A stretch of DNA of 64,000 bases, taken from sequence record PV357172.2; one strand, given 5' to 3'. Below are positions 2,605-64,000 of this stretch, piece after piece. The notes under the pieces are model-generated. The model was given only the letters and a program-made list of their open reading frames with translations. It made no database searches and was not told the DNA's origin. Made by a program: the position numbers and the translations under genes. The DNA comes from a phage. The first letter of the stretch is position 1. The number at the start of each line of letters is the position of its first letter.

Positions 2605-2775
2605 ATGAAGAACTTGATCGTCATTGGTGTTAACACTCGCGGTATTCGTACTACGAAAACTATTAAAACTTCTAACGTTGCTGAAATCACTACGAACCCT
2701 AAAAAGTTTGATTTCGCCAAAGTCTCAGCAGTTATGACGGAGCAATCTTTTAACCAAGCGTTAGGACTGAAATAA
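2605..2775 (+). CDS. small hypothetical protein (56 aa)
   Basis: ATG 2605 after promoter and GAGAGGAAG SD; stop overlaps next start (TAATG); below the track length cutoff. Confidence 0.4.
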   Translation: MKNLIVIGVNTRGIRTTKTIKTSNVAEITTNPKKFDFAKVSAVMTEQSFNQALGLK

Positions 2776-3218
2776 TGGAAGAGAATATTTTAGATGTTTT
2801 GCGTAGAGCTTTGCAGGATTCTAAGTTTAATGGTTCTGATAAAGAAGTCGCTAAAAGCTATCAGACCATAATCGGGGATCTTCAGCGTATTGATAAAGAT
2901 TTCATCACTTCTGAACAATTTGTGTCTTATCTCAAAGCTCAACTAAAAAGCATTAACCAGATGAAAGCTAAACTTCATGGTCAAGATCTTGATAGTTATA
3001 GCTTGCAGTCCGCTCAGTATGAATACATTCTAAATAAGTGGTTGCAGGAGTATCTGCCTCCTCAGTTATCTGATACTGAGATTCGTAAATACTTTGCAGA
3101 ATTAGTTAAGCTAAACCCTGGAATTACAAAAGGTATGCTGATGAAAGCGATTAAGGAAGAATTTCCTGGGCGTTATGATGGTGGTACTGCTGCTCAGATT
3201 GCTGGCGAATTTAATTAA
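2775..3218 (+). CDS. GatB/YqeY-domain protein
   Basis: C-terminal pattern EYLPPQLS...G...GMLMKAI......DGG matches YqeY/GatB-like domain proteins. Confidence 0.6.
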   Translation: MEENILDVLRRALQDSKFNGSDKEVAKSYQTIIGDLQRIDKDFITSEQFVSYLKAQLKSINQMKAKLHGQDLDSYSLQSAQYEYILNKWLQEYLPPQLSDTEIRKYFAELVKLNPGITKGMLMKAIKEEFPGRYDGGTAAQIAGEFN

Positions 3219-3226
3219 AAATTTAC

Positions 3227-3255
3227 TTGCTAAATGCTTATAAATTCTGTATAAT
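3227..3255 (+). promoter_or_regulatory. sigma70-like early promoter
   Basis: TTGCTA 3227-3232, TATAAT 3250-3255. Confidence 0.6.
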
Positions 3256-3262
3256 ATATTCA

Positions 3263-4050
3263 TAAATTAGGGAACAGCGAGCCGATTACGCTGAGTGCAG
3301 AATCCCAACCGGAGCGCATTGAATAGAGTCGGTGGGTTAGTTGTAAAACTAGTACACAGGGGGCGGCAATCCCGGTTAGTGGCTAGAACGTGTAAAATGA
3401 GGCGTCTGAAACCTCTCCCCTAAACTCTTCTCTAATTTATAAATAGTGGGGTGTGGAAATCACTTATGTAGTAACACTGCCGTCCTAGTATAATTGGTAT
3501 TATCAAGCCGTAACTGGTGGAAGATGTAGGTTCGAATCCTACGGTCGGTAAGAACTGGATAACTGATGCTTTTAACGTAAAAGCTTCCGAGGTTAGTTGC
3601 GCACTGCCTAAACCACGCGGTAGTTGGTTCCAGACTAACCAACCAGTCTGCTGAATAGTTTTATTACGATTTAACTATGCCCAGGCTAAAGAAGAACTTT
3701 AGAAGGTATTCTAGGATAGTGAAGTTCTTTCTCCATATCGGAGTAGTTTTTCAAGCTATCCACAAAGTGGGAAATGCTGACATGAGAGATGTCACTAATG
3801 GTGCACAATAGCACAGGTAATTCGCGATAACCCCTGTTGAGTAGCAGCAAAAGGCGGGAAGTCATGACCCCAAGCCTAACCGAGTCCTCAATATACCGCA
3901 GGACATAACCACTAAGTCCCCCTGACTTAAACTGGAAAATAATAGACGTTACTGTATTTTGTCTTGAAATACTTAATGAGTGAGACTTATGACTCTCCCG
4001 GTATCGTCTGTATTTTTAAGAGTTTTTACGAGAGTTCTTAAAAATACTTA
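3263..4050 (+). ncRNA. promoter-driven untranslated region upstream of tRNA-Arg; candidate structured RNA(s)
   Basis: About 790 nt between a consensus promoter and tRNA-Arg with no plausible ORF; contains one tRNA-like T-arm. Confidence 0.3.
3479..3550 (+). tRNA. tRNA-like element (T-arm and acceptor stem only)
   Basis: GTAGG-TTCGAAT-CCTAC T-arm with 6/7 acceptor pairing; D and anticodon arms weak. Confidence 0.25.
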
Positions 4051-4052
4051 AA

Positions 4053-4124
4053 CGGGGTGTAGTCTAAGGGAGAGGCAGGAGTCTTCTAAATTCCTTTATG
4101 CAGGTTCGAATCCTGTCACCTCGG
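4053..4124 (+). tRNA. tRNA-Arg (anticodon TCT)
   Basis: Acceptor CGGGGTG/CACCTCG, anticodon loop CTTCTAA, T-arm GCAGG-TTCGAAT-CCTGT, encoded CCA. Confidence 0.8.
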
Positions 4125-4161
4125 CCAATTTTATTAACTGTAGCTAAAACAAAGGAAATAT

Positions 4162-10271: not shown

Positions 10272-10527
10272 CCAAATTTAGGTTTCTGCTTCCTAGAGAA
10301 CGGACTCCTAGATAAACAAGGCGATGAGTTTCCGGCCGGTTCTAGTCGCTGAAAATCCTCCCGACCAGGTAGGTGTAAGTAAATGAAAGTTTACTTATTG
10401 AGTAGGTTCCGATAGACCGGCGGGTCTATTCTGGCATTTAAGAGAGGTCTCGCAAACTTCTTTGTCAGCCGTGGGGTTGGTAGCCTCCAGGTGGCCTACA
10501 CAATAAGTAAATTTATTAAAAATTCAT

Positions 10528-10556
10528 TTGCTATTCTGCTTAATTCTCTGTATAAT
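10528..10556 (+). promoter_or_regulatory. sigma70-like early promoter
   Basis: TTGCTA 10528-10533, TATAAT 10551-10556. Confidence 0.6.
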
Positions 10557-10587
10557 ATATTTTATAAAGTGAGTTAACAAAAATTAA

Positions 10588-10660
10588 CAGTGCGTAGCGC
10601 AGTTGGTAGCGTGGGAGCCTTGGGTGCTTCGGGTCGCAGGTTCGAGTCCTGCCGCACTGA
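10588..10660 (+). tRNA. tRNA-Pro (TGG)
   Basis: Perfect acceptor CAGTGCG/CGCACTG, anticodon loop CTTGGGT, T-arm GCAGG-TTCGAGT-CCTGC, CCA. Confidence 0.85.
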
Positions 10661-10669
10661 CCAAACAAT

Positions 10670-10744
10670 TGCGGGTTAGATCTCTGGTAGAGATCGCTAG
10701 TCTCATAAGCTAGAAAGAGGTAGGTTCGATTCCTGCACCCGCTT
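10670..10744 (+). tRNA. tRNA with CAT anticodon (Met/fMet/Ile2)
   Basis: Anticodon stem CTAGT/GCTAG, loop CTCATAA, T-loop TTCGATT, 1:72 U-U mismatch, CCA. Confidence 0.75.
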
Positions 10745-10921
10745 CCATTTTAATAGAGGATTTCGAAATGAAAGTATTTCGATTAGTAGTAAGTGACAAA
10801 CGGTTAGGTAAGAATACATCAAAATCCTTACTTGCTCATTATGGTAAAAATTGGGATGAAGTAATGGCAGAGTTTAATACTAATCACCCTTACTTGAAAG
10901 TTCACTCTATTAAGGAAGTTT

Positions 10922-12605: not shown

Positions 12606-12697
12606 GGTAGGTCAATCCAATGGCTGGCGCTGGACTCCGACTTGAAATCGGTTGATCGTAGTGATACGGTGTAAGGGTTCGATCCCCTTACCTACCT
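12606..12697 (+). tRNA. tRNA-Ser (TGA), long variable arm
   Basis: Perfect acceptor GGTAGGT/ACCTACC, anticodon loop CTTGAAA, T-arm AAGGG-TTCGATC-CCCTT, CCA. Confidence 0.7.
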
Positions 12698-13534: not shown

Positions 13535-13545
13535 CCAAACAATAA

Positions 13546-13618
13546 GCGATTAAGCACACGGGTTGTGCCGCAGGCCTTCCAAGCCCCGCTGAGTAGGGTT
13601 CGATTCCCTCTAGCCGCT
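13546..13618 (+). tRNA. tRNA, anticodon uncertain (possibly Trp CCA)
   Basis: Good T-arm (TTCGATT), acceptor with one mismatch and CCA end; anticodon stem pairs poorly. Confidence 0.5.
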
Positions 13619-35524: not shown

Positions 35525-35646
35525 TTTAACGCCTCCTAGAAATCAGGGAAAATTTTCAATCCACCGTTTTGGTGTAAAGGCATTATAACAAAAAAGGCCA
35601 CCATAAAAGGCGACCTTTACAAAACTTTACATTAGGTTAATTATTA

Positions 35647-35760
35647 CTCGCTTTCGGTGCTAACGGTAAAAGTAGAAATATCAATACCTTTCACCATTTC
35701 CAGCATTGCCGCCACCTGGCCGCCGCGTTGGGTCTTTACTTTAATATTACCCCACAGCGT
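35647..35760 (-). pseudogene. 38-codon gene remnant (3' end only)
   Basis: Open frame between stops encoding ...TLWGNIKVKTQRGGQVAAMLEMVKGIDISTFTVSTESE with no start or RBS; a hairpin and T-run follow on the minus strand. Confidence 0.3.
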
Positions 35761-35825
35761 TTAGCTCGTTAGAAAGCGATTTAGGCCGCTTATTTTGGGC
35801 ATCATTATAGTATGCTTCCCATTTA

Positions 35826-35935
35826 CCCTGTATATTTATACAGTGGAATAACCTGTGGATAAGTCTGTGTAAAAGTGCTGTAAAGCCTTCCTATTGTGTC
35901 AATCAAATTTACAAAATGTATAAACCTGTGGATAA
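35826..35935. repeat. right arm of inverted repeat carrying DnaA boxes
   Basis: Reverse complement of the left arm: CTGTATATTTATACAG palindrome and TGTGGATAA twice (35854, 35927). Confidence 0.7.
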
Positions 35936-36126
35936 CTTAAATGATAGTGGTTCTCACTAACTAATTTATACAGTTATTATATAACAAAATATAGTTAGTT
36001 GGCTAATAGGATTTTAAAGTGATTATGAGTCTGCTAAGTAAACCTGAAAAACTCATTAGGTAGTCTGCTAATGATTTTGATATAATATAATAGAGATTAA
36101 ACTAATAACATAAGGAAACAATAACA

Positions 36127-40847: not shown

Positions 40848-41105
40848 ATGAAAGTTACATTACCCAAAACATTGGACGAAAAAGTATTTATTTCACCGGA
40901 TGAAATGGAATCTGATAAAGTTTACAGCTTCGGGCCTATCCTAGCCGCCAAAACTAATACGGATGGTATTATTTCCGTCGATTCCCGTGATAACGATATT
41001 GTTCCTTTTGATGATGATGGCGCTTTTTATGAGTGGCTAAGCGATAATAATTTACCCGTAAACGGTGAATTAACGCCATACCAGATGCAGATTATTATCA
41101 AATAA
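40848..41105 (+). CDS. hypothetical protein (85 aa)
   Basis: Track ORF with AGGAG SD. Confidence 0.5.
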   Translation: MKVTLPKTLDEKVFISPDEMESDKVYSFGPILAAKTNTDGIISVDSRDNDIVPFDDDGAFYEWLSDNNLPVNGELTPYQMQIIIK

Positions 41106-41143
41106 ATTAAATCCATTATTAAACTAATTGGAGTTTTATAAAT

Positions 41144-41536
41144 ATGAAAAAGCAAAATATTCCCTTCGATCGCGCTCAGTCCTCAATTGTTCTGGTTTAT
41201 TCCAACGGCGAACGTTACCACGTCGAGGCTGGACACGTTATTGATGACCTATTAGATTTCAATGACGCTTTGCAGGTTACTACCTTTGCATATACGCAGG
41301 GCAAACTAACCAGCCATATTAAAGCAAAAGGCGTTTATGTTGACACGGTGAAACAAGAAACGATTATCATCGACGCCGTAAAATCCGGCCTAGCCTTTGC
41401 AGTTGTCGCGCCTTGCCTCGCTTGCCTTGATGATCAATTGATTAGTGCAAAGGTCTACACATGTGCGGGGATTCGTTCTAGCGTATCCGGTGAGGATGTT
41501 AGTTTTATCGCTGATGCGTTGGCTTATGGTCTTTAA
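41144..41536 (+). CDS. A2 candidate (130 aa)
   Basis: Size and position next to the A1-like gene only. Confidence 0.35.
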   Translation: MKKQNIPFDRAQSSIVLVYSNGERYHVEAGHVIDDLLDFNDALQVTTFAYTQGKLTSHIKAKGVYVDTVKQETIIIDAVKSGLAFAVVAPCLACLDDQLISAKVYTCAGIRSSVSGEDVSFIADALAYGL

Positions 41537-41616
41537 TAGTTGATTTATTATTGCCCGCTTATAAATAGCGGGTAATGCTGAATTAATCTAATCCCTTAAA
41601 TGGAGAACGTAACAAA

Positions 41617-61922: not shown

Positions 61923-64000
61923 AAAAAATATTAGATAGTGCTAGAAACTACTTAAAAAATAATAGCAGAATAAAAACTGCTAGTCTAATTTCTCTAGAAT
62001 TACCCGGCTCTACTGGTACTAGTACTGCTTTTATTTACTTAACTGACTATTTTAGAGATGTACTATATAATGGTATTTTGTACCAGGCCGGTAAAGTTAA
62101 GTCTATTAGCACACATAAACAAAATAGAGATTTATCTATTGGCAGCCTATCTTTTACTATTACAGGTACAGCGCAGGATGAAGTACTGAAATTAGTGCAG
62201 AATGGTGTGTCTTTTTTAGATAGATTAGTATCAATTCACCAAGCAATTATTACAGAAGATGGTTCTATTTTACCTGTAGACCCAGACACAAATGGGCCTT
62301 TATTATACTTTAGAGGTAGAATTACTGGTGGAGGTATTAAGGATAATATTAGCACTTCGGGAGTTGGAACCTCCACAATTACTTGGAATTGTTCTAACCA
62401 ATTCTATGATTTTGATAGGGTTAATGGTAGATTTACTGATGATGCTTCTCATAGAGGGCTTGAAGTTGTAGCAGGGCAATTAGTTCCATCTAACGGGGCT
62501 AAAAGACTTGAGTATCAAGAAGATTATGGGTTCTTTCATGCCAATAAAAGTATCTCTATTCTAGCAAAATATCAGGTACAGGAAGAAAGATACAAGCTAA
62601 AGTCTAAGAAAAAGCTATTTGGCCTATCTAGAAGTTATAGTCTTAAAAAGTATTATGAGACTGTTACTAAAGAAGTAGATATAGATTTTAACCTTGCTGC
62701 TAAGTATCTACCAGTAGTTTATGGTGTACAGAAAATACCGGGAATACCTATTTTTGCGGATACGGAATTACACAATCCTAATATAGTTTACGTAGTATAT
62801 GCTTTTGCTGAAGGAGAGATAGACGGTTTTCTTGACTTTTCCTTTGGGGATAACCCTATGATTTGTATGGACTCTAATGATAGCTCTGCTAGAACCTGTT
62901 TCGGTGTTAAAAAAGTAGCCGGAGACACCATGCAAAGAATAGCATCAGGAACACCTTCTAGTAGTCCTTCCGTGCATGGGCAGGAGTATAAGTATAATGA
63001 TGGGAATGGTGACATAAGAATTTGGACGTATCATGGAAAACCTGACCAAACGGCTTCTGAAGTACTAGTAGATATAGCTAAAGAACGTGGGTTCTACCTT
63101 CAGAATATGAATGGCAATGGACCGGAGTACTGGGATGCTAGGTATAAACTACTAGATACTGCATACGCAGTGGTGCGCTTCACTATTAATGAAAATAGGA
63201 CTGAGATTCCTGAAGTTAGTGCTGAAATTCAAGGTAAAAAAGTAAAAGTCTATCATTCTGATGGTAGAGTAACTGCTAATAGTACTAGTTTAAATGGTAT
63301 TTGGCAAACACTTGATTACTTAACCTCTGATAGATATGGCGCTAATATTACCATTGATCAGTTCCCCCTTCAGCAATTAATACAGGAAGCAGATATTTTA
63401 GATATTATAGATGAATCCTATCAGGTATCTTGGCAGCCATATTGGAGATACGTTGGGTGGACTGATCCACTAGCAGAAAATAGACAAATAGTACAAATGA
63501 ATACTATTCTGGATACATCTGAATCAGTATTTAAAAATGTGCAAGGTTTGTTAGAGTCCTATGGTGGGGCTATTAACAATTTATCTGGCCAGTATAGGGT
63601 TACTGTAGAAAAATACTCTAATACTCCATTAGAGATTAATTTTCTAGACACTTACGGTGATTTGGAGCTATCTGATACTACCGGTAGAAATAAATTCAAC
63701 TCAGTTCAAGCATCTATTGTGGATCCCGCCCTTAGCTGGAAAACTAATTCCATTACCTTCTATAATTCCAAGTATAAGGAACAGGACAAAAACCTGGATA
63801 AAAAACTACAATTATCTTTTGCAAATATAACTAACTACTATACTGCTAGAAGTTTTGCAGACAGAGAACTTAAGAAATCTAGGTATTCTAGAACCCTCTC
63901 ATTCTCTTTACCATATCAATTCATTGGTATTGAGCCTAACGATGCTATTGCATTTACATACGACCGTTACGGATGGGATAAGAAGTACTTTTTAGTAGAT
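61919..64000 (+). CDS. baseplate hub protein pb3-like (5' part, runs off the window)
   Basis: ATG 61919 overlaps the upstream stop; frame appears open to the window end on manual reading. Confidence 0.6.
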   Translation, partial: MKKILDSARNYLKNNSRIKTASLISLELPGSTGTSTAFIYLTDYFRDVLYNGILYQAGKVKSISTHKQNRDLSIGSLSFTITGTAQDEVLKLVQNGVSFLDRLVSIHQAIITEDGSILPVDPDTNGPLLYFRGRITGGGIKDNISTSGVGTSTITWNCSNQFYDFDRVNGRFTDDASHRGLEVVAGQLVPSNGAKRLEYQEDYGFFHANKSISILAKYQVQEERYKLKSKKKLFGLSRSYSLKKYYETVTKEVDIDFNLAAKYLPVVYGVQKIPGIPIFADTELHNPNIVYVVYAFAEGEIDGFLDFSFGDNPMICMDSNDSSARTCFGVKKVAGDTMQRIASGTPSSSPSVHGQEYKYNDGNGDIRIWTYHGKPDQTASEVLVDIAKERGFYLQNMNGNGPEYWDARYKLLDTAYAVVRFTINENRTEIPEVSAEIQGKKVKVYHSDGRVTANSTSLNGIWQTLDYLTSDRYGANITIDQFPLQQLIQEADILDIIDESYQVSWQPYWRYVGWTDPLAENRQIVQMNTILDTSESVFKNVQGLLESYGGAINNLSGQYRVTVEKYSNTPLEINFLDTYGDLELSDTTGRNKFNSVQASIVDPALSWKTNSITFYNSKYKEQDKNLDKKLQLSFANITNYYTARSFADRELKKSRYSRTLSFSLPYQFIGIEPNDAIAFTYDRYGWDKKYFLVD

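What the first reader, a model, noticed from the sequence alone, without database searches (positions are those of the whole stretch)
3263..4050. About 790-nt promoter-driven non-coding stretch before tRNA-Arg
A consensus early promoter is followed by almost 800 nt with no credible ORF or RBS, containing one tRNA-like T-arm and ending at tRNA-Arg. This is unusually long non-coding DNA for a genome this dense, so it probably encodes one or more stable structured RNAs.
Basis: seen in the sequence. Interest (0 to 1): 0.5.

Follow-up and report, generated by a model that had tools for sequence, protein, structure and literature searches.

The report
Phage T5 "RNAX" large structured RNA
The stretch is this phage's copy of T5 "RNAX", an approximately 790-base, promoter-driven, non-coding RNA that T5 records already list as a stable RNA of unknown function; comparison with relatives shows it is a conserved, many-helix folded RNA, not spacer DNA.

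Summary
A T5-type early promoter (3227-3255, +1 near 3262) is followed by about 790 nt with no coding signal. The stretch contains a tRNA-like element (3479-3550) and ends 5 nt before tRNA-Arg(UCU) (4053-4127).

It is not new as a locus. GenBank AY543070 (T5) and NC_047749 (DT571/2) annotate the orthologous stretch as misc_RNA rnaX, "stable RNA with unknown functions". No Rfam family matches it except tRNA, for the tRNA-like element.

What I add:
- It is one multi-domain structured RNA, conserved across Demerecviridae: Tequintavirus, Epseptimavirus, Sugarlandvirus, Hongcheonvirus, and partly Novosibvirus and Priunavirus.
- Invariant sequence islands are separated by helices that keep pairing through compensatory changes. 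In two tested blocks, 44 of 84 pairs change on both sides, and 0 of 500 shuffles reach the observed values.
- G.U pairs place the RNA on the + strand.
- The tRNA-like element has no conserved anticodon loop. It caps a 14-position covarying helix.
- The ends are closed by a 13-bp helix starting at +1 and by a 17-bp 3' hairpin.

Function is unknown. The locus is absent from the viable T5 st0 deletion mutant. The closest analogues in kind are GOLLD and ROOL, but it is not a member of either.

The parts
3227..3267 (+). T5-type early promoter (-35 TTGCTA, 17-nt spacer, -10 TATAAT 3250-3255, conserved initial transcribed ATAAAT). Predicted +1 is at about 3262.
   Evidence: One search gives 10 of 12 hexamer matches. 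One search finds a perfect match to the extended motif, with 13 copies in the window against 0 expected. The orthologous site is annotated 'promoter P 16-17' in AY543070. The +1 position is inferred from the spacing and from my memory of T5 PN25; it is not measured.
3262..4052 (+). RNAX ortholog: the whole non-coding transcript from +1 to the RNase P site at the 5' end of tRNA-Arg.
   Evidence: Synteny and 91-99% identity to the annotated rnaX of T5 and DT571/2. No coding signal.
3262..3440 (+). 5' domain. It is closed by a 13-bp helix, 3262-3274 with 3428-3440, that starts at +1. It contains hairpin 3275-3293 (CAGCG/CGCUG) and the conserved strands AGAGU (about 3325) and ACUCU (about 3424).
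   Evidence: The closing duplex is present in 12 of 12 lineages, at -10 to -17 kcal/mol against about -4 to -5 for shuffles. Length variants match on both sides: GAGAA with UUCUC, GAGAGAA with UUCUCUC. T5 and DT571/2 lack the interior (query 56-204) and keep only the helix as a hairpin. Proteus has CAGCA/UGCUG, a compensatory change.
3443..3478 (+). 'Island A', AUAGUGGGGUGUGGAAAUCACUUAUGUAGUAACACU. This is the most widely conserved sequence of the RNA.
   Evidence: It is nearly invariant in 32 sequences, including Proteus and Providencia phages. As a search pattern it finds only T5-like DNA in IMG/VR and in metagenomes.
3459..3567 (+). Helix P1: 3459-3472 pairs with 3554-3567. It has 14 positions, with conserved C.C (3463/3563) and G.G (3468/3558) mismatches, and it encloses the tRNA-like element.
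   Evidence: helix 2: 12 pairs, 99.4% of cells paired, 7 pairs with changes on both sides. Many U.G pairs are present. The Proteus and Providencia phages keep the helix with different sequence.
3479..3550 (+). tRNA-like element. It has an acceptor stem, a D arm and a perfect T arm (GGUUCGAAUCC). The 'anticodon arm' is a short variable stem with a 4-6-nt loop. No CCA is encoded.
   Evidence: Rfam tRNA scores 35.5 bits with the anticodon arm unaligned. ARAGORN assigns act, tca, tag or nothing in different relatives. Klebsiella phages and L118 carry a hairpin inserted in the anticodon arm. SH9 and L027 have a plain hairpin in place of the element. AY587007 annotates it as a pseudo-tRNA.
3568..3584 (+). 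Hairpin hp1, GCUUUU-AACGU-AAAAGC.
   Evidence: helix 6. Variants are GCUUAU/AUAAGC, GGUUC/GAACC and GCGUA/UACGC.
3591..3765 (+). Central domain. It contains hairpins 3591-3608, 3623-3643 (GUUGGUU/AACCAAC), 3700-3713 (UAGAA-GGUA-UUCUA) and 3731-3743 (CUCC/GGAG). It also holds the complementary strands AAGAACUU (3692-3699) and AAGUUCUU (3722-3729), and the conserved motif UAAACCACG (about 3609).
   Evidence: Compensatory variants are seen directly: GUUGAUU/AAUCAAC; GACAG/CUGUC against GGCAG/CUGCC; UAGUC/GACUA and UAGGC/GCCUA. This domain is replaced by a different sequence in several Epseptimavirus phages.
3766..3943 (+). 3' core domain. Helices are 3778-3783/3789-3794, 3813-3817/3833-3837, 3852-3855/3874-3877 plus 3856-3858/3869-3871, 3884-3888/3900-3904, and 3915-3919/3923-3927. 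Invariant motifs are GUGGGA (3767), AUAACCAC (about 3905) and AAACUGGAA.
   Evidence: Helices 1-6 are 77-91% paired, and almost every pair changes on both sides. Helix 7 is invariant.
3858..3869 (+). Invariant loop G(G/A)AGUCAUGACC. It presents the self-complementary octamer GUCAUGAC (3861-3868) on a covarying stem.
   Evidence: The loop columns are invariant in 30 sequences. The stem changes on both sides in 4 of 4 pairs (helix 4). There is a single copy in the window. The loop is also complementary to AGUCA..UGACU at 3915-3927.
3944..4008 (+). Variable three-way junction closed by AGACG/CGUCU.
   Evidence: Epseptimavirus and Klebsiella phages have a different sequence here with its own closing helix, CUGACGG/CCGUCGG. 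This part was not tested formally.
4010..4047 (+). Terminal 17-bp hairpin with a UACG loop. It lies 5 nt upstream of tRNA-Arg and has no U-tract.
   Evidence: helix 8: 97.6% paired, 5 pairs with changes on both sides, and G.U/U.G at three positions. Enterobacter phage KKP_3711 carries compensatory changes. The hairpin is nearly invariant in about 500 phage records. The terminator scan does not call it.
4053..4127 (+). tRNA-Arg(UCU). Its 5' processing would define the 3' end of RNAX.
   Evidence: ARAGORN and Rfam at 49.3 bits. RNase P cleavage at tRNA 5' ends is established knowledge; it was not shown here.

Best explanation
This is the ortholog of bacteriophage T5 rnaX. Host RNA polymerase transcribes it early in infection from a strong T5-type promoter, as the 5' part of a transcript that continues into tRNA-Arg.

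The first ~790 nt do not code for protein. They fold into a multi-domain RNA with these parts:
- a 5' domain closed by a 13-bp helix that begins at +1;
- a conserved junction (Island A with helix P1) capped by a tRNA-like element that has no working anticodon loop;
- a central domain;
- a 3' core that displays invariant loops on covarying stems;
- a 17-bp terminal hairpin.

RNase P cleavage at the 5' end of tRNA-Arg would release the RNA. Its 5' end would then be buried in a helix and its 3' end would be a hairpin with a 5-nt tail. That would explain why it accumulates as a 'stable RNA'.

I think it acts in trans as a folded RNA particle, not as a leader. The invariant loops (GUCAUGAC, AGUCA..UGACU, GUGGG, AACCAC) would be the sites of tertiary, intermolecular or protein contacts. 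I take it to be an accessory function linked to the phage tRNA island, since T5 grows without it in the laboratory.

Shown: the promoter motif, the absence of coding signal, conservation, the helices and the strand.
Inferred: the processing steps, the basis of stability, trans action and any partner.
For: - Identity: T5 AY543070 annotates 40848-41566 as rnaX, 'stable RNA with unknown functions', between 'promoter P 16-17' and tRNA-Arg. DT571/2 does the same. The window is 91-99% identical to T5 over query 205-909.
- Conservation: there are 563 phage records with matches. A syntenic non-coding gap of 750-1000 nt lies before tRNA-Arg in Pectobacterium, Enterobacter, Proteus and Providencia Demerecviridae. 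Their endolysin is only 34-64% identical in protein sequence, yet Island A, the GUCAUGAC loop and the terminal hairpin are almost invariant in DNA.
- Structure, block 3440-3593: 39 pairs, 90.8% paired against 81.2% in shuffles (0 of 500 shuffles reach it). Slid registers give 35-46%. 18 pairs change on both sides.
- Structure, block 3750-4050: 45 pairs, 91.5% paired against 85.0% (0 of 500). Slid registers give 30-49%. 26 pairs change on both sides.
- Structure, elsewhere: further compensatory hairpins in the centre and the 5' closing helix.
- Strand: frequent G.U/U.G pairs, which would be A.C mismatches on the other strand.
- Modularity: whole domains are lost or swapped exactly at helix boundaries. 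T5 keeps only the closing helix of the 5' domain.
- Coding: no coding signal, and no remnants of the ORFs that relatives carry at this locus.
Against: - No expression data were available. 'Stable RNA' rests on a GenBank note, and I could not find the primary paper.
- The thermodynamic z-score of the whole stretch is unremarkable (-1.45).
- The shuffle control ignores phylogeny, and effective diversity is modest (about 15 lineages). Many of the most conserved elements never vary, so they cannot be tested by covariation.
- The locus is dispensable. The viable T5 st0 deletion mutant lacks it, and natural variants lose whole domains. That fits an accessory role but also weak constraint.
- In some relatives ORFs sit inside the same transcript: an HNH endonuclease after the promoter and a 169-aa ORF before tRNA-Arg. 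The RNA can therefore also be part of an mRNA.
Confidence: 0.8

Rival explanations
1. The stretch is only a cis-acting leader and processing cassette. It would exist to deliver and process tRNA-Arg and the downstream mRNA. The tRNA-like element and the long hairpin would serve as RNase P and RNase III or RNase E entry sites, with no function of its own after cleavage.
For: It is co-oriented and contiguous with tRNA-Arg. The tRNA-like element always keeps the acceptor and T arms; from established knowledge, not tested here, these are the part of a tRNA that RNase P needs. The 17-bp hairpin sits exactly at the border. In some relatives ORFs lie within the same unit.
Against: Other tRNAs of the same island need no such leader. 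Several follow one another within 5-10 nt. About 600 nt of invariant islands and covarying helices across genera is far more than a processing signal requires. The tRNA-like element itself is replaceable by a plain hairpin. In Klebsiella and Providencia phages the RNA is separated from tRNA-Arg by ORFs.
Confidence: 0.1
2. The stretch is a graveyard of decayed tRNA genes and homing-endonuclease debris in the recombination-prone tRNA region, kept only by recent common ancestry.
For: A pseudo-tRNA is present. The locus is mosaic, with an HNH endonuclease gene inserted in relatives. Domains are lost in T5, and the locus is dispensable.
Against: Compensatory changes maintain the helices. Sequence islands are invariant between genera whose proteins have diverged to 34-64% identity. 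tblastn finds no remnant of the inserted ORFs. Only one tRNA-like hit occurs in 790 nt.
Confidence: 0.04
3. The conserved palindromes and the long inverted repeat act at the DNA level, as a protein-binding, replication, nicking or endonuclease-target site, and not in RNA.
For: GTCATGAC is a perfect DNA palindrome. The 38-nt inverted repeat is almost invariant. T5 DNA has site-specific nicks, and homing endonucleases act in this region (annotations).
Against: The helices contain many G.U pairs, which are not complementary in DNA or on the other strand. Covarying stems of 4-7 bp with variable loops are RNA-like. A strong promoter reads through the whole unit.
Confidence: 0.04

Closest known systems
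rnaX (RNAX) of bacteriophage T5 (GenBank AY543070, misc_RNA 40848-41566) and of DT571/2 (NC_047749)
   Same: The position is the same: after the T5.081 YqeY-like gene, behind promoter P 16-17 and abutting tRNA-Arg(UCU). The sequence is 91-99% identical over about 700 nt.
   Different: The window's copy carries a ~150-nt 5' domain interior (3274-3422) that T5 and DT571/2 lack. It lacks the ~88-nt insertion flanked by a 23-nt direct repeat that T5 has. The database entry gives no structure or function.
GOLLD (RF01998) and ROOL (RF03087), the large ornate phage and prophage RNAs
   Same: All are phage-encoded, very large and multi-helix, with no known protein partner or function, and they lie next to tRNA islands. 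GOLLD has a conserved 3' region, a less conserved 5' region, and sometimes a tRNA inside a variable region (PMC12286853). RNAX likewise has a conserved 3' core, variable 5' and central domains, and an embedded tRNA-like element.
   Different: No covariance-model match appears even at E up to 10 in the window, or up to 1 in six divergent relatives. The sequence and helices are different, and the host range is enterobacterial virulent siphoviruses. Oligomerisation is untested.
Bacterial Y RNAs (YrlA), recalled from memory as a lead only
   Same: Both have a long helix with conserved non-canonical positions, capped by a tRNA-like module that lacks a decoding anticodon. This is the architecture of P1 plus the tRNA-like element.
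   Different: There is no Rfam match. Here the module is one part of a ~790-nt RNA. No rsr (Ro) gene was seen next to it.
Stable RNAs of unknown function in phage tRNA clusters: T4 species 1 and 2 (rnaC, rnaD), from memory; T5 RNAI, RNAIII, RNA1, RNA2 and others
   Same: They are non-tRNA stable RNAs co-transcribed with phage tRNAs and released by tRNA processing. The T5 set is annotated in AY692264.
   Different: Those are 70-170 nt. RNAX is about 5-10 times larger and multi-domain.

Membership tests
T5 rnaX locus (GenBank annotation) | Lies between the early promoter after the T5.081 homologue and tRNA-Arg(UCU), on the same strand. | tested here: met
   The YqeY-like ORF is at 2775-3218 (Pfam YqeY at 25.4 bits, below the cut-off of 27). 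The promoter is at 3227-3255 and tRNA-Arg at 4053-4127.
T5 rnaX locus (GenBank annotation) | Nucleotide homology to the annotated T5 and DT571/2 RNAX. | tested here: met
   T5 matches at 91% over query 205-719 and 98.6% over query 697-909. DT571/2 matches at 96% over query 205-909.
T5 rnaX locus (GenBank annotation) | Accumulates as a stable transcript in infected cells. | not testable with these tools
   Only the depositors' note 'stable RNA with unknown functions' is available. No paper was found.
tRNA (RF00005), for 3479-3550 | Cloverleaf covariance-model score above the gathering threshold. | tested here: met
   35.5 bits against 29.
tRNA (RF00005), for 3479-3550 | Anticodon stem with a 7-nt loop and an anticodon conserved among orthologues. 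| tested here: not met
   The anticodon arm is unaligned. The loop is 4-6 nt, or carries a 15-nt inserted hairpin. ARAGORN calls act, tca, tag or none. SH9 and L027 have a plain hairpin in place of the element.
tRNA (RF00005), for 3479-3550 | Free 3' end with CCA, encoded as in the neighbouring phage tRNA-Arg. | tested here: not met
   The sequence after the acceptor stem is A-AGA and runs straight into the 3' strand of helix P1. tRNA-Arg does encode CCA.
GOLLD / ROOL | Match to the Rfam covariance model. | tested here: not met
   No hit in the window at E up to 10, nor in six divergent homologues at E up to 1.
GOLLD / ROOL | Phage-encoded, next to a tRNA island, more than 500 nt, with many covarying helices. 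| tested here: met
   These features are as described for GOLLD and ROOL in PMC12286853.
GOLLD / ROOL | RNA-only homo-oligomer (nanocage). | not testable with these tools
   The only hint is an invariant self-complementary loop, GUCAUGAC.
Bacterial Y RNA (YrlA) | Match to the Rfam model and adjacency to rsr. | tested here: not met
   No Rfam hit. The neighbours are a YqeY-like gene and an SPFH/Band 7 gene.
Intrinsic terminator, for hairpin 4010-4047 | G+C-rich stem followed by a U-tract. | tested here: not met
   The stem is A+U-rich and is followed by UUAAAC. The terminator scan does not report it.

The most novel reading that the evidence does not exclude
RNAX would be the founding member of a third, unrelated class of giant ornate phage RNAs associated with tRNA islands. 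It is about 0.8 kb here and about 1.1-1.3 kb in Klebsiella and some Salmonella phages. Like GOLLD and ROOL, it would work as an RNA-only assembly, self-associating through its invariant self-complementary loop GUCAUGAC. It would then provide a genetically tractable E. coli/T5 model for the unsolved function of such RNAs.
Probability: 0.15. Interest if true: 0.85.

Novelty: already known. Interest (0 to 1): 0.5.

Why it matters
T5 is a classic model phage, and its records have listed this locus as a stable RNA of unknown function since 2004. It is still absent from Rfam, and the searched literature gives it no structure or function.

This analysis shows it is a conserved, covariation-supported RNA of at least 15 helices, found across a whole phage family. 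Some relatives carry versions longer than 1 kb. That puts it in the small group of very large bacterial and phage RNAs whose roles are unknown.

T5 and E. coli are easy to manipulate, and a natural deletion mutant (st0) is viable. The function is therefore directly testable. Candidates include a link to tRNA supply, to defences that target tRNAs, or to RNA self-assembly.

Tried and rejected
- Rfam scans: permissive scans of the window and of six divergent homologues found only tRNA and tRNA-like hits, plus chance-level snoRNA and miRNA matches.
- Thermodynamic folding: whole-stretch folding gave z = -1.45 on the + strand and -1.27 on the - strand, which is uninformative.
- Pseudogene hypothesis: tblastn of the ORFs that relatives carry at this locus (160-aa HNH_3 endonuclease, 169-aa ORF and others) against the window, T5, bastian, TrudiGerster and DU_PP_V regions gave nothing significant. 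The only matches came from spurious 'ORFs' that overlap conserved RNA sequence.
- Search for the RNA outside Demerecviridae:
  - The Island A pattern in IMG/VR found 32 loci, all T5-like genomes.
  - In metagenomes it found 15 loci: 12 T5-like and 3 chance hits in unrelated sequence.
  - The pattern GGAGTCATGACC..ATAACCAC in 185,579 species genomes found 7 hits, none with any other motif of the RNA, so all are chance.
- Column-pair covariation: a naive all-against-all screen was swamped by phylogenetic signal, so I abandoned it for a stacked-helix search.
- Global RNAalifold: on the gappy full alignment it was unreliable in the swapped domains, so I tested blocks instead.
- Helix GUGC/GCAC (3801-3814): dropped, because T5 lacks it and it overlaps a better-supported helix.
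- Pseudoknot-type helix GGUGU/ACACU (3450-3454 with 3474-3478): it is 96% paired but never covaries (helix 1), so it stays undecided.
- Literature: searches for RNAX, T5 stable RNAs or T5 transcriptomes found no primary source.

Full report
**What the window is.** The window comes from a T5-like phage. The stretch 3219-4052 is 99.5% identical to Escherichia phage OSYSP, and 393 phage records match by megablast. By blastn, 563 records match, mostly Salmonella, Escherichia and Klebsiella Demerecviridae. The finding lies at the start of the phage tRNA island, which has 19 tRNA genes on the + strand between 4053 and 15020.

**Checking the observation.**
- The stretch lies between a YqeY-like ORF (2775-3218) and tRNA-Arg(UCU) (4053-4127).
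- There is no + strand ORF of 60 aa or more. The three longest (42-45 aa) show no third-position excess of substitutions in close relatives.
- The promoter TTGCTA-17-TATAAT at 3227-3255 belongs to a 41-nt extended motif. That motif occurs 13 times in the window and never in shuffles. TTGCTw is the published -35 consensus of T5-like promoters (PMC3326045).
- Rfam finds a tRNA-like element at 3479-3550 (35.5 bits). Its anticodon arm does not fit the model.
- The observation therefore holds. One caveat: other ORF-poor stretches of 500-640 nt exist in the window.

**The locus is already annotated.**
- T5 record AY543070 annotates the orthologous 719 nt as misc_RNA rnaX, 'RNAX, stable RNA with unknown functions'. 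It is preceded by 'promoter P 16-17' and directly followed by tRNA-Arg. DT571/2 carries the same annotation.
- Another T5 record marks only a pseudo-tRNA there. Most other records annotate nothing, or spurious small ORFs.
- The viable T5 st0 deletion mutant lacks the locus. The annotated deletion runs from next to tRNA-Asp into the T5.081 homologue, and only promoter-like repeats of my query match that record.
- I found no paper describing RNAX.

**Comparative anatomy.** I collected the locus from about 50 distinct sequences. They came from IMG/VR, metagenomes and GenBank.
- The locus is mosaic, but around a common core.
- Island A (3443-3478) is nearly invariant in all of them, including Proteus and Providencia phages.
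- The loop GGAGUCAUGACC, the motif AUAACCAC..AGUCACCYUGACUUAAACUGGAA and the terminal hairpin are invariant, or nearly so, in Tequintavirus, Epseptimavirus, Sugarlandvirus, Enterobacter phage KKP_3711 and Pectobacterium phage DU_PP_V. The endolysin two to three genes upstream has diverged to 44-64% protein identity in the first groups, and to 34% in Proteus.
- Between the islands lie helices of different sequence but the same position.

**Formal covariation tests.**
- Block 3440-3593 (32 sequences): 39 proposed pairs are 90.8% paired against 81.2% in shuffles (0 of 500). Slid registers give 35-46%. 18 pairs change on both sides.
- The best helix is P1, 3459-3472 with 3554-3567. It is 99.4% paired, and 7 of its 12 pairs are compensatory. 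Two conserved mismatches (C.C and G.G) are retained even in Proteus and Providencia.
- Block 3750-4050 (30 sequences): 45 pairs are 91.5% paired against 85.0% (0 of 500). Slid registers give 30-49%. 26 pairs change on both sides.
- The central domain shows further compensatory hairpins by direct inspection.
- The 5' domain is closed by a 13-14-bp helix that starts at +1. It is present in 12 of 12 lineages, and its length variants match on both strands.
- Abundant G.U pairs show that the + strand is the folded strand.
- Limits: the shuffle control does not model phylogeny, effective diversity is about 15 lineages, and the invariant motifs cannot be tested this way.

**The tRNA-like element.**
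- It sits on top of helix P1. It keeps the acceptor and T arms, which themselves covary.
- Its 'anticodon arm' is a short stem with a 4-6-nt loop. In Klebsiella phages and in L118 this arm carries an extra hairpin, and that hairpin also covaries.
- In SH9 and L027 a plain hairpin sits where the element would be, and Proteus and Providencia phages also have a plain hairpin at that position.
- No CCA is encoded.
- It is therefore a structural or processing module, not a decoding tRNA.

**Modularity.**
- T5 and DT571/2 lack the interior of the 5' domain (window 3274-3422) and keep its closing helix as a hairpin.
- H8, SE24 and CitS1 carry a 160-aa HNH_3 homing endonuclease gene in place of that domain.
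- Many Epseptimavirus phages carry a 169-aa ORF with no Pfam match between the terminal hairpin and tRNA-Arg.
- Several relatives have an extra ~190-nt domain before Island A. Their full-length versions reach about 1.1-1.3 kb.
- The window's version is about 790 nt.

**Mechanism.**
- Shown: a strong early promoter, a non-coding multi-domain fold on the + strand, and defined ends in secondary structure.
- Inferred: RNase P cleavage at tRNA-Arg releases the RNA. Its 5' end would be in a helix, and its 3' end would be a 17-bp hairpin plus 5 nt. That would account for stability. The hairpin is not a terminator, because it has no U-tract. It could also be an RNase III site.
- The invariant loops on covarying stems point to tertiary, intermolecular or protein contacts.
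- The octamer GUCAUGAC (3861-3868) is self-complementary. It is also complementary to AGUCA..UGACU (3915-3927). I cannot distinguish an intramolecular contact from dimerisation.
- Function remains unknown. The locus is dispensable in the laboratory, so an accessory role is most likely, for example one related to host range, anti-defence or tRNAs.

**Comparison with known classes.**
- GOLLD and ROOL are the nearest in kind. They are phage RNAs near tRNA islands, very large and of unknown function. GOLLD has a conserved 3' region and sometimes embedded tRNAs (PMC12286853). RNAX matches neither covariance model, so it is not a member of either.
- P1 plus the tRNA-like cap recalls bacterial Y RNAs. 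This comes from my memory, and there is no model match.
- Searches of IMG/VR, metagenomes and 185,579 species genomes with the RNA's most conserved motifs found it only in T5-like phages.

**Verdict.** As a locus it is already known (T5 rnaX). The new part is the evidence that it is a large, conserved, covariation-supported structured RNA family with no Rfam entry. I rate interest as moderate. It would be high if the RNA proves to be a GOLLD/ROOL-like assembly in a tractable model phage.

Noticed in passing
L030 (phage H8), L069 (SE24) and L075 (CitS1): the first ~480 nt after the orthologous promoter: A 160-aa HNH_3 homing-endonuclease ORF (Pfam E = 2.6e-12) sits where the 5' domain of the RNA would be. 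Its ATG lies at the predicted +1 of the same promoter, which suggests a leaderless mRNA or a different start site. KKP 3953 carries a truncated copy.
   Followed up: partly
L069 2614-3123, L070 2424-2933, L074 2187-2696, L075 1816-2325, L026 and L027: A conserved 169-aa ORF with no Pfam match and its own Shine-Dalgarno sequence is inserted between the terminal hairpin of the RNA and tRNA-Arg in many Epseptimavirus phages. It is absent from the window.
   Followed up: partly
T5 (L005/L019) and metagenome contig L117; corresponds to window ~3915-3937: An ~88-nt insertion containing its own inverted repeat is flanked by a 23-nt direct duplication of AGTCACCTTGACTTAAACTGGAA. This looks like a small mobile or duplicative insertion inside the RNA.
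   Followed up: no
L112 6695-7455 (Proteus phage PL1) and L113 6107-6852 (Providencia phage PSTCR5): These phages keep Island A, helix P1 and hairpin hp1. Their T-arm-like element lies upstream of Island A, as does a GGG-AUAAGUCAUGACA-CCC hairpin in Proteus. No T5-type 3' domain follows. This may be a domain permutation, or independent gain and loss of domains.
   Followed up: partly
window 12606-12696 and 13545-13618: These are sub-threshold tRNA-like matches (tRNA-Sec model at 37.6 and 23.3 bits against a gathering score of 47) inside the tRNA island. ARAGORN does not call them. They may correspond to the small stable RNAs (RNAI, RNAIII and others) annotated in T5 record AY692264.
   Followed up: no
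window 1194, 2545, 3227, 5315, 7156, 11482, 16455, 18580, 23121, 23939, 26092, 26600 (+ strand) and 44362 (- strand): There are thirteen copies of a 41-nt extended early-promoter motif (TTGCTW-N17-TATAATANATTCATAAAT, up to 3 mismatches), against none expected by chance.
   Followed up: partly
window 63016-63656, 35525-36126 and 10276-10767: These are other long stretches without any ORF of 50 aa or more on either strand. 10276-10767 holds tRNA genes. The other two were not examined.
   Followed up: no
L123 (metagenome contig Ga0157373_10257919, 1234 nt): This variant's tRNA-like element has a regular 5-bp anticodon stem and a 7-nt loop (CUGUGGU, possible anticodon GUG). That hints the embedded element may descend from a real tRNA.
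   Followed up: no
phage collection records OR848805.1 and OR848534.1 ('Listeria phage LM 4-14-1'), and Campylobacter-labelled records: Short records labelled as Listeria or Campylobacter phages are 97-98% identical to this T5-like locus. They are probably mislabelled or contaminant contigs.
   Followed up: no
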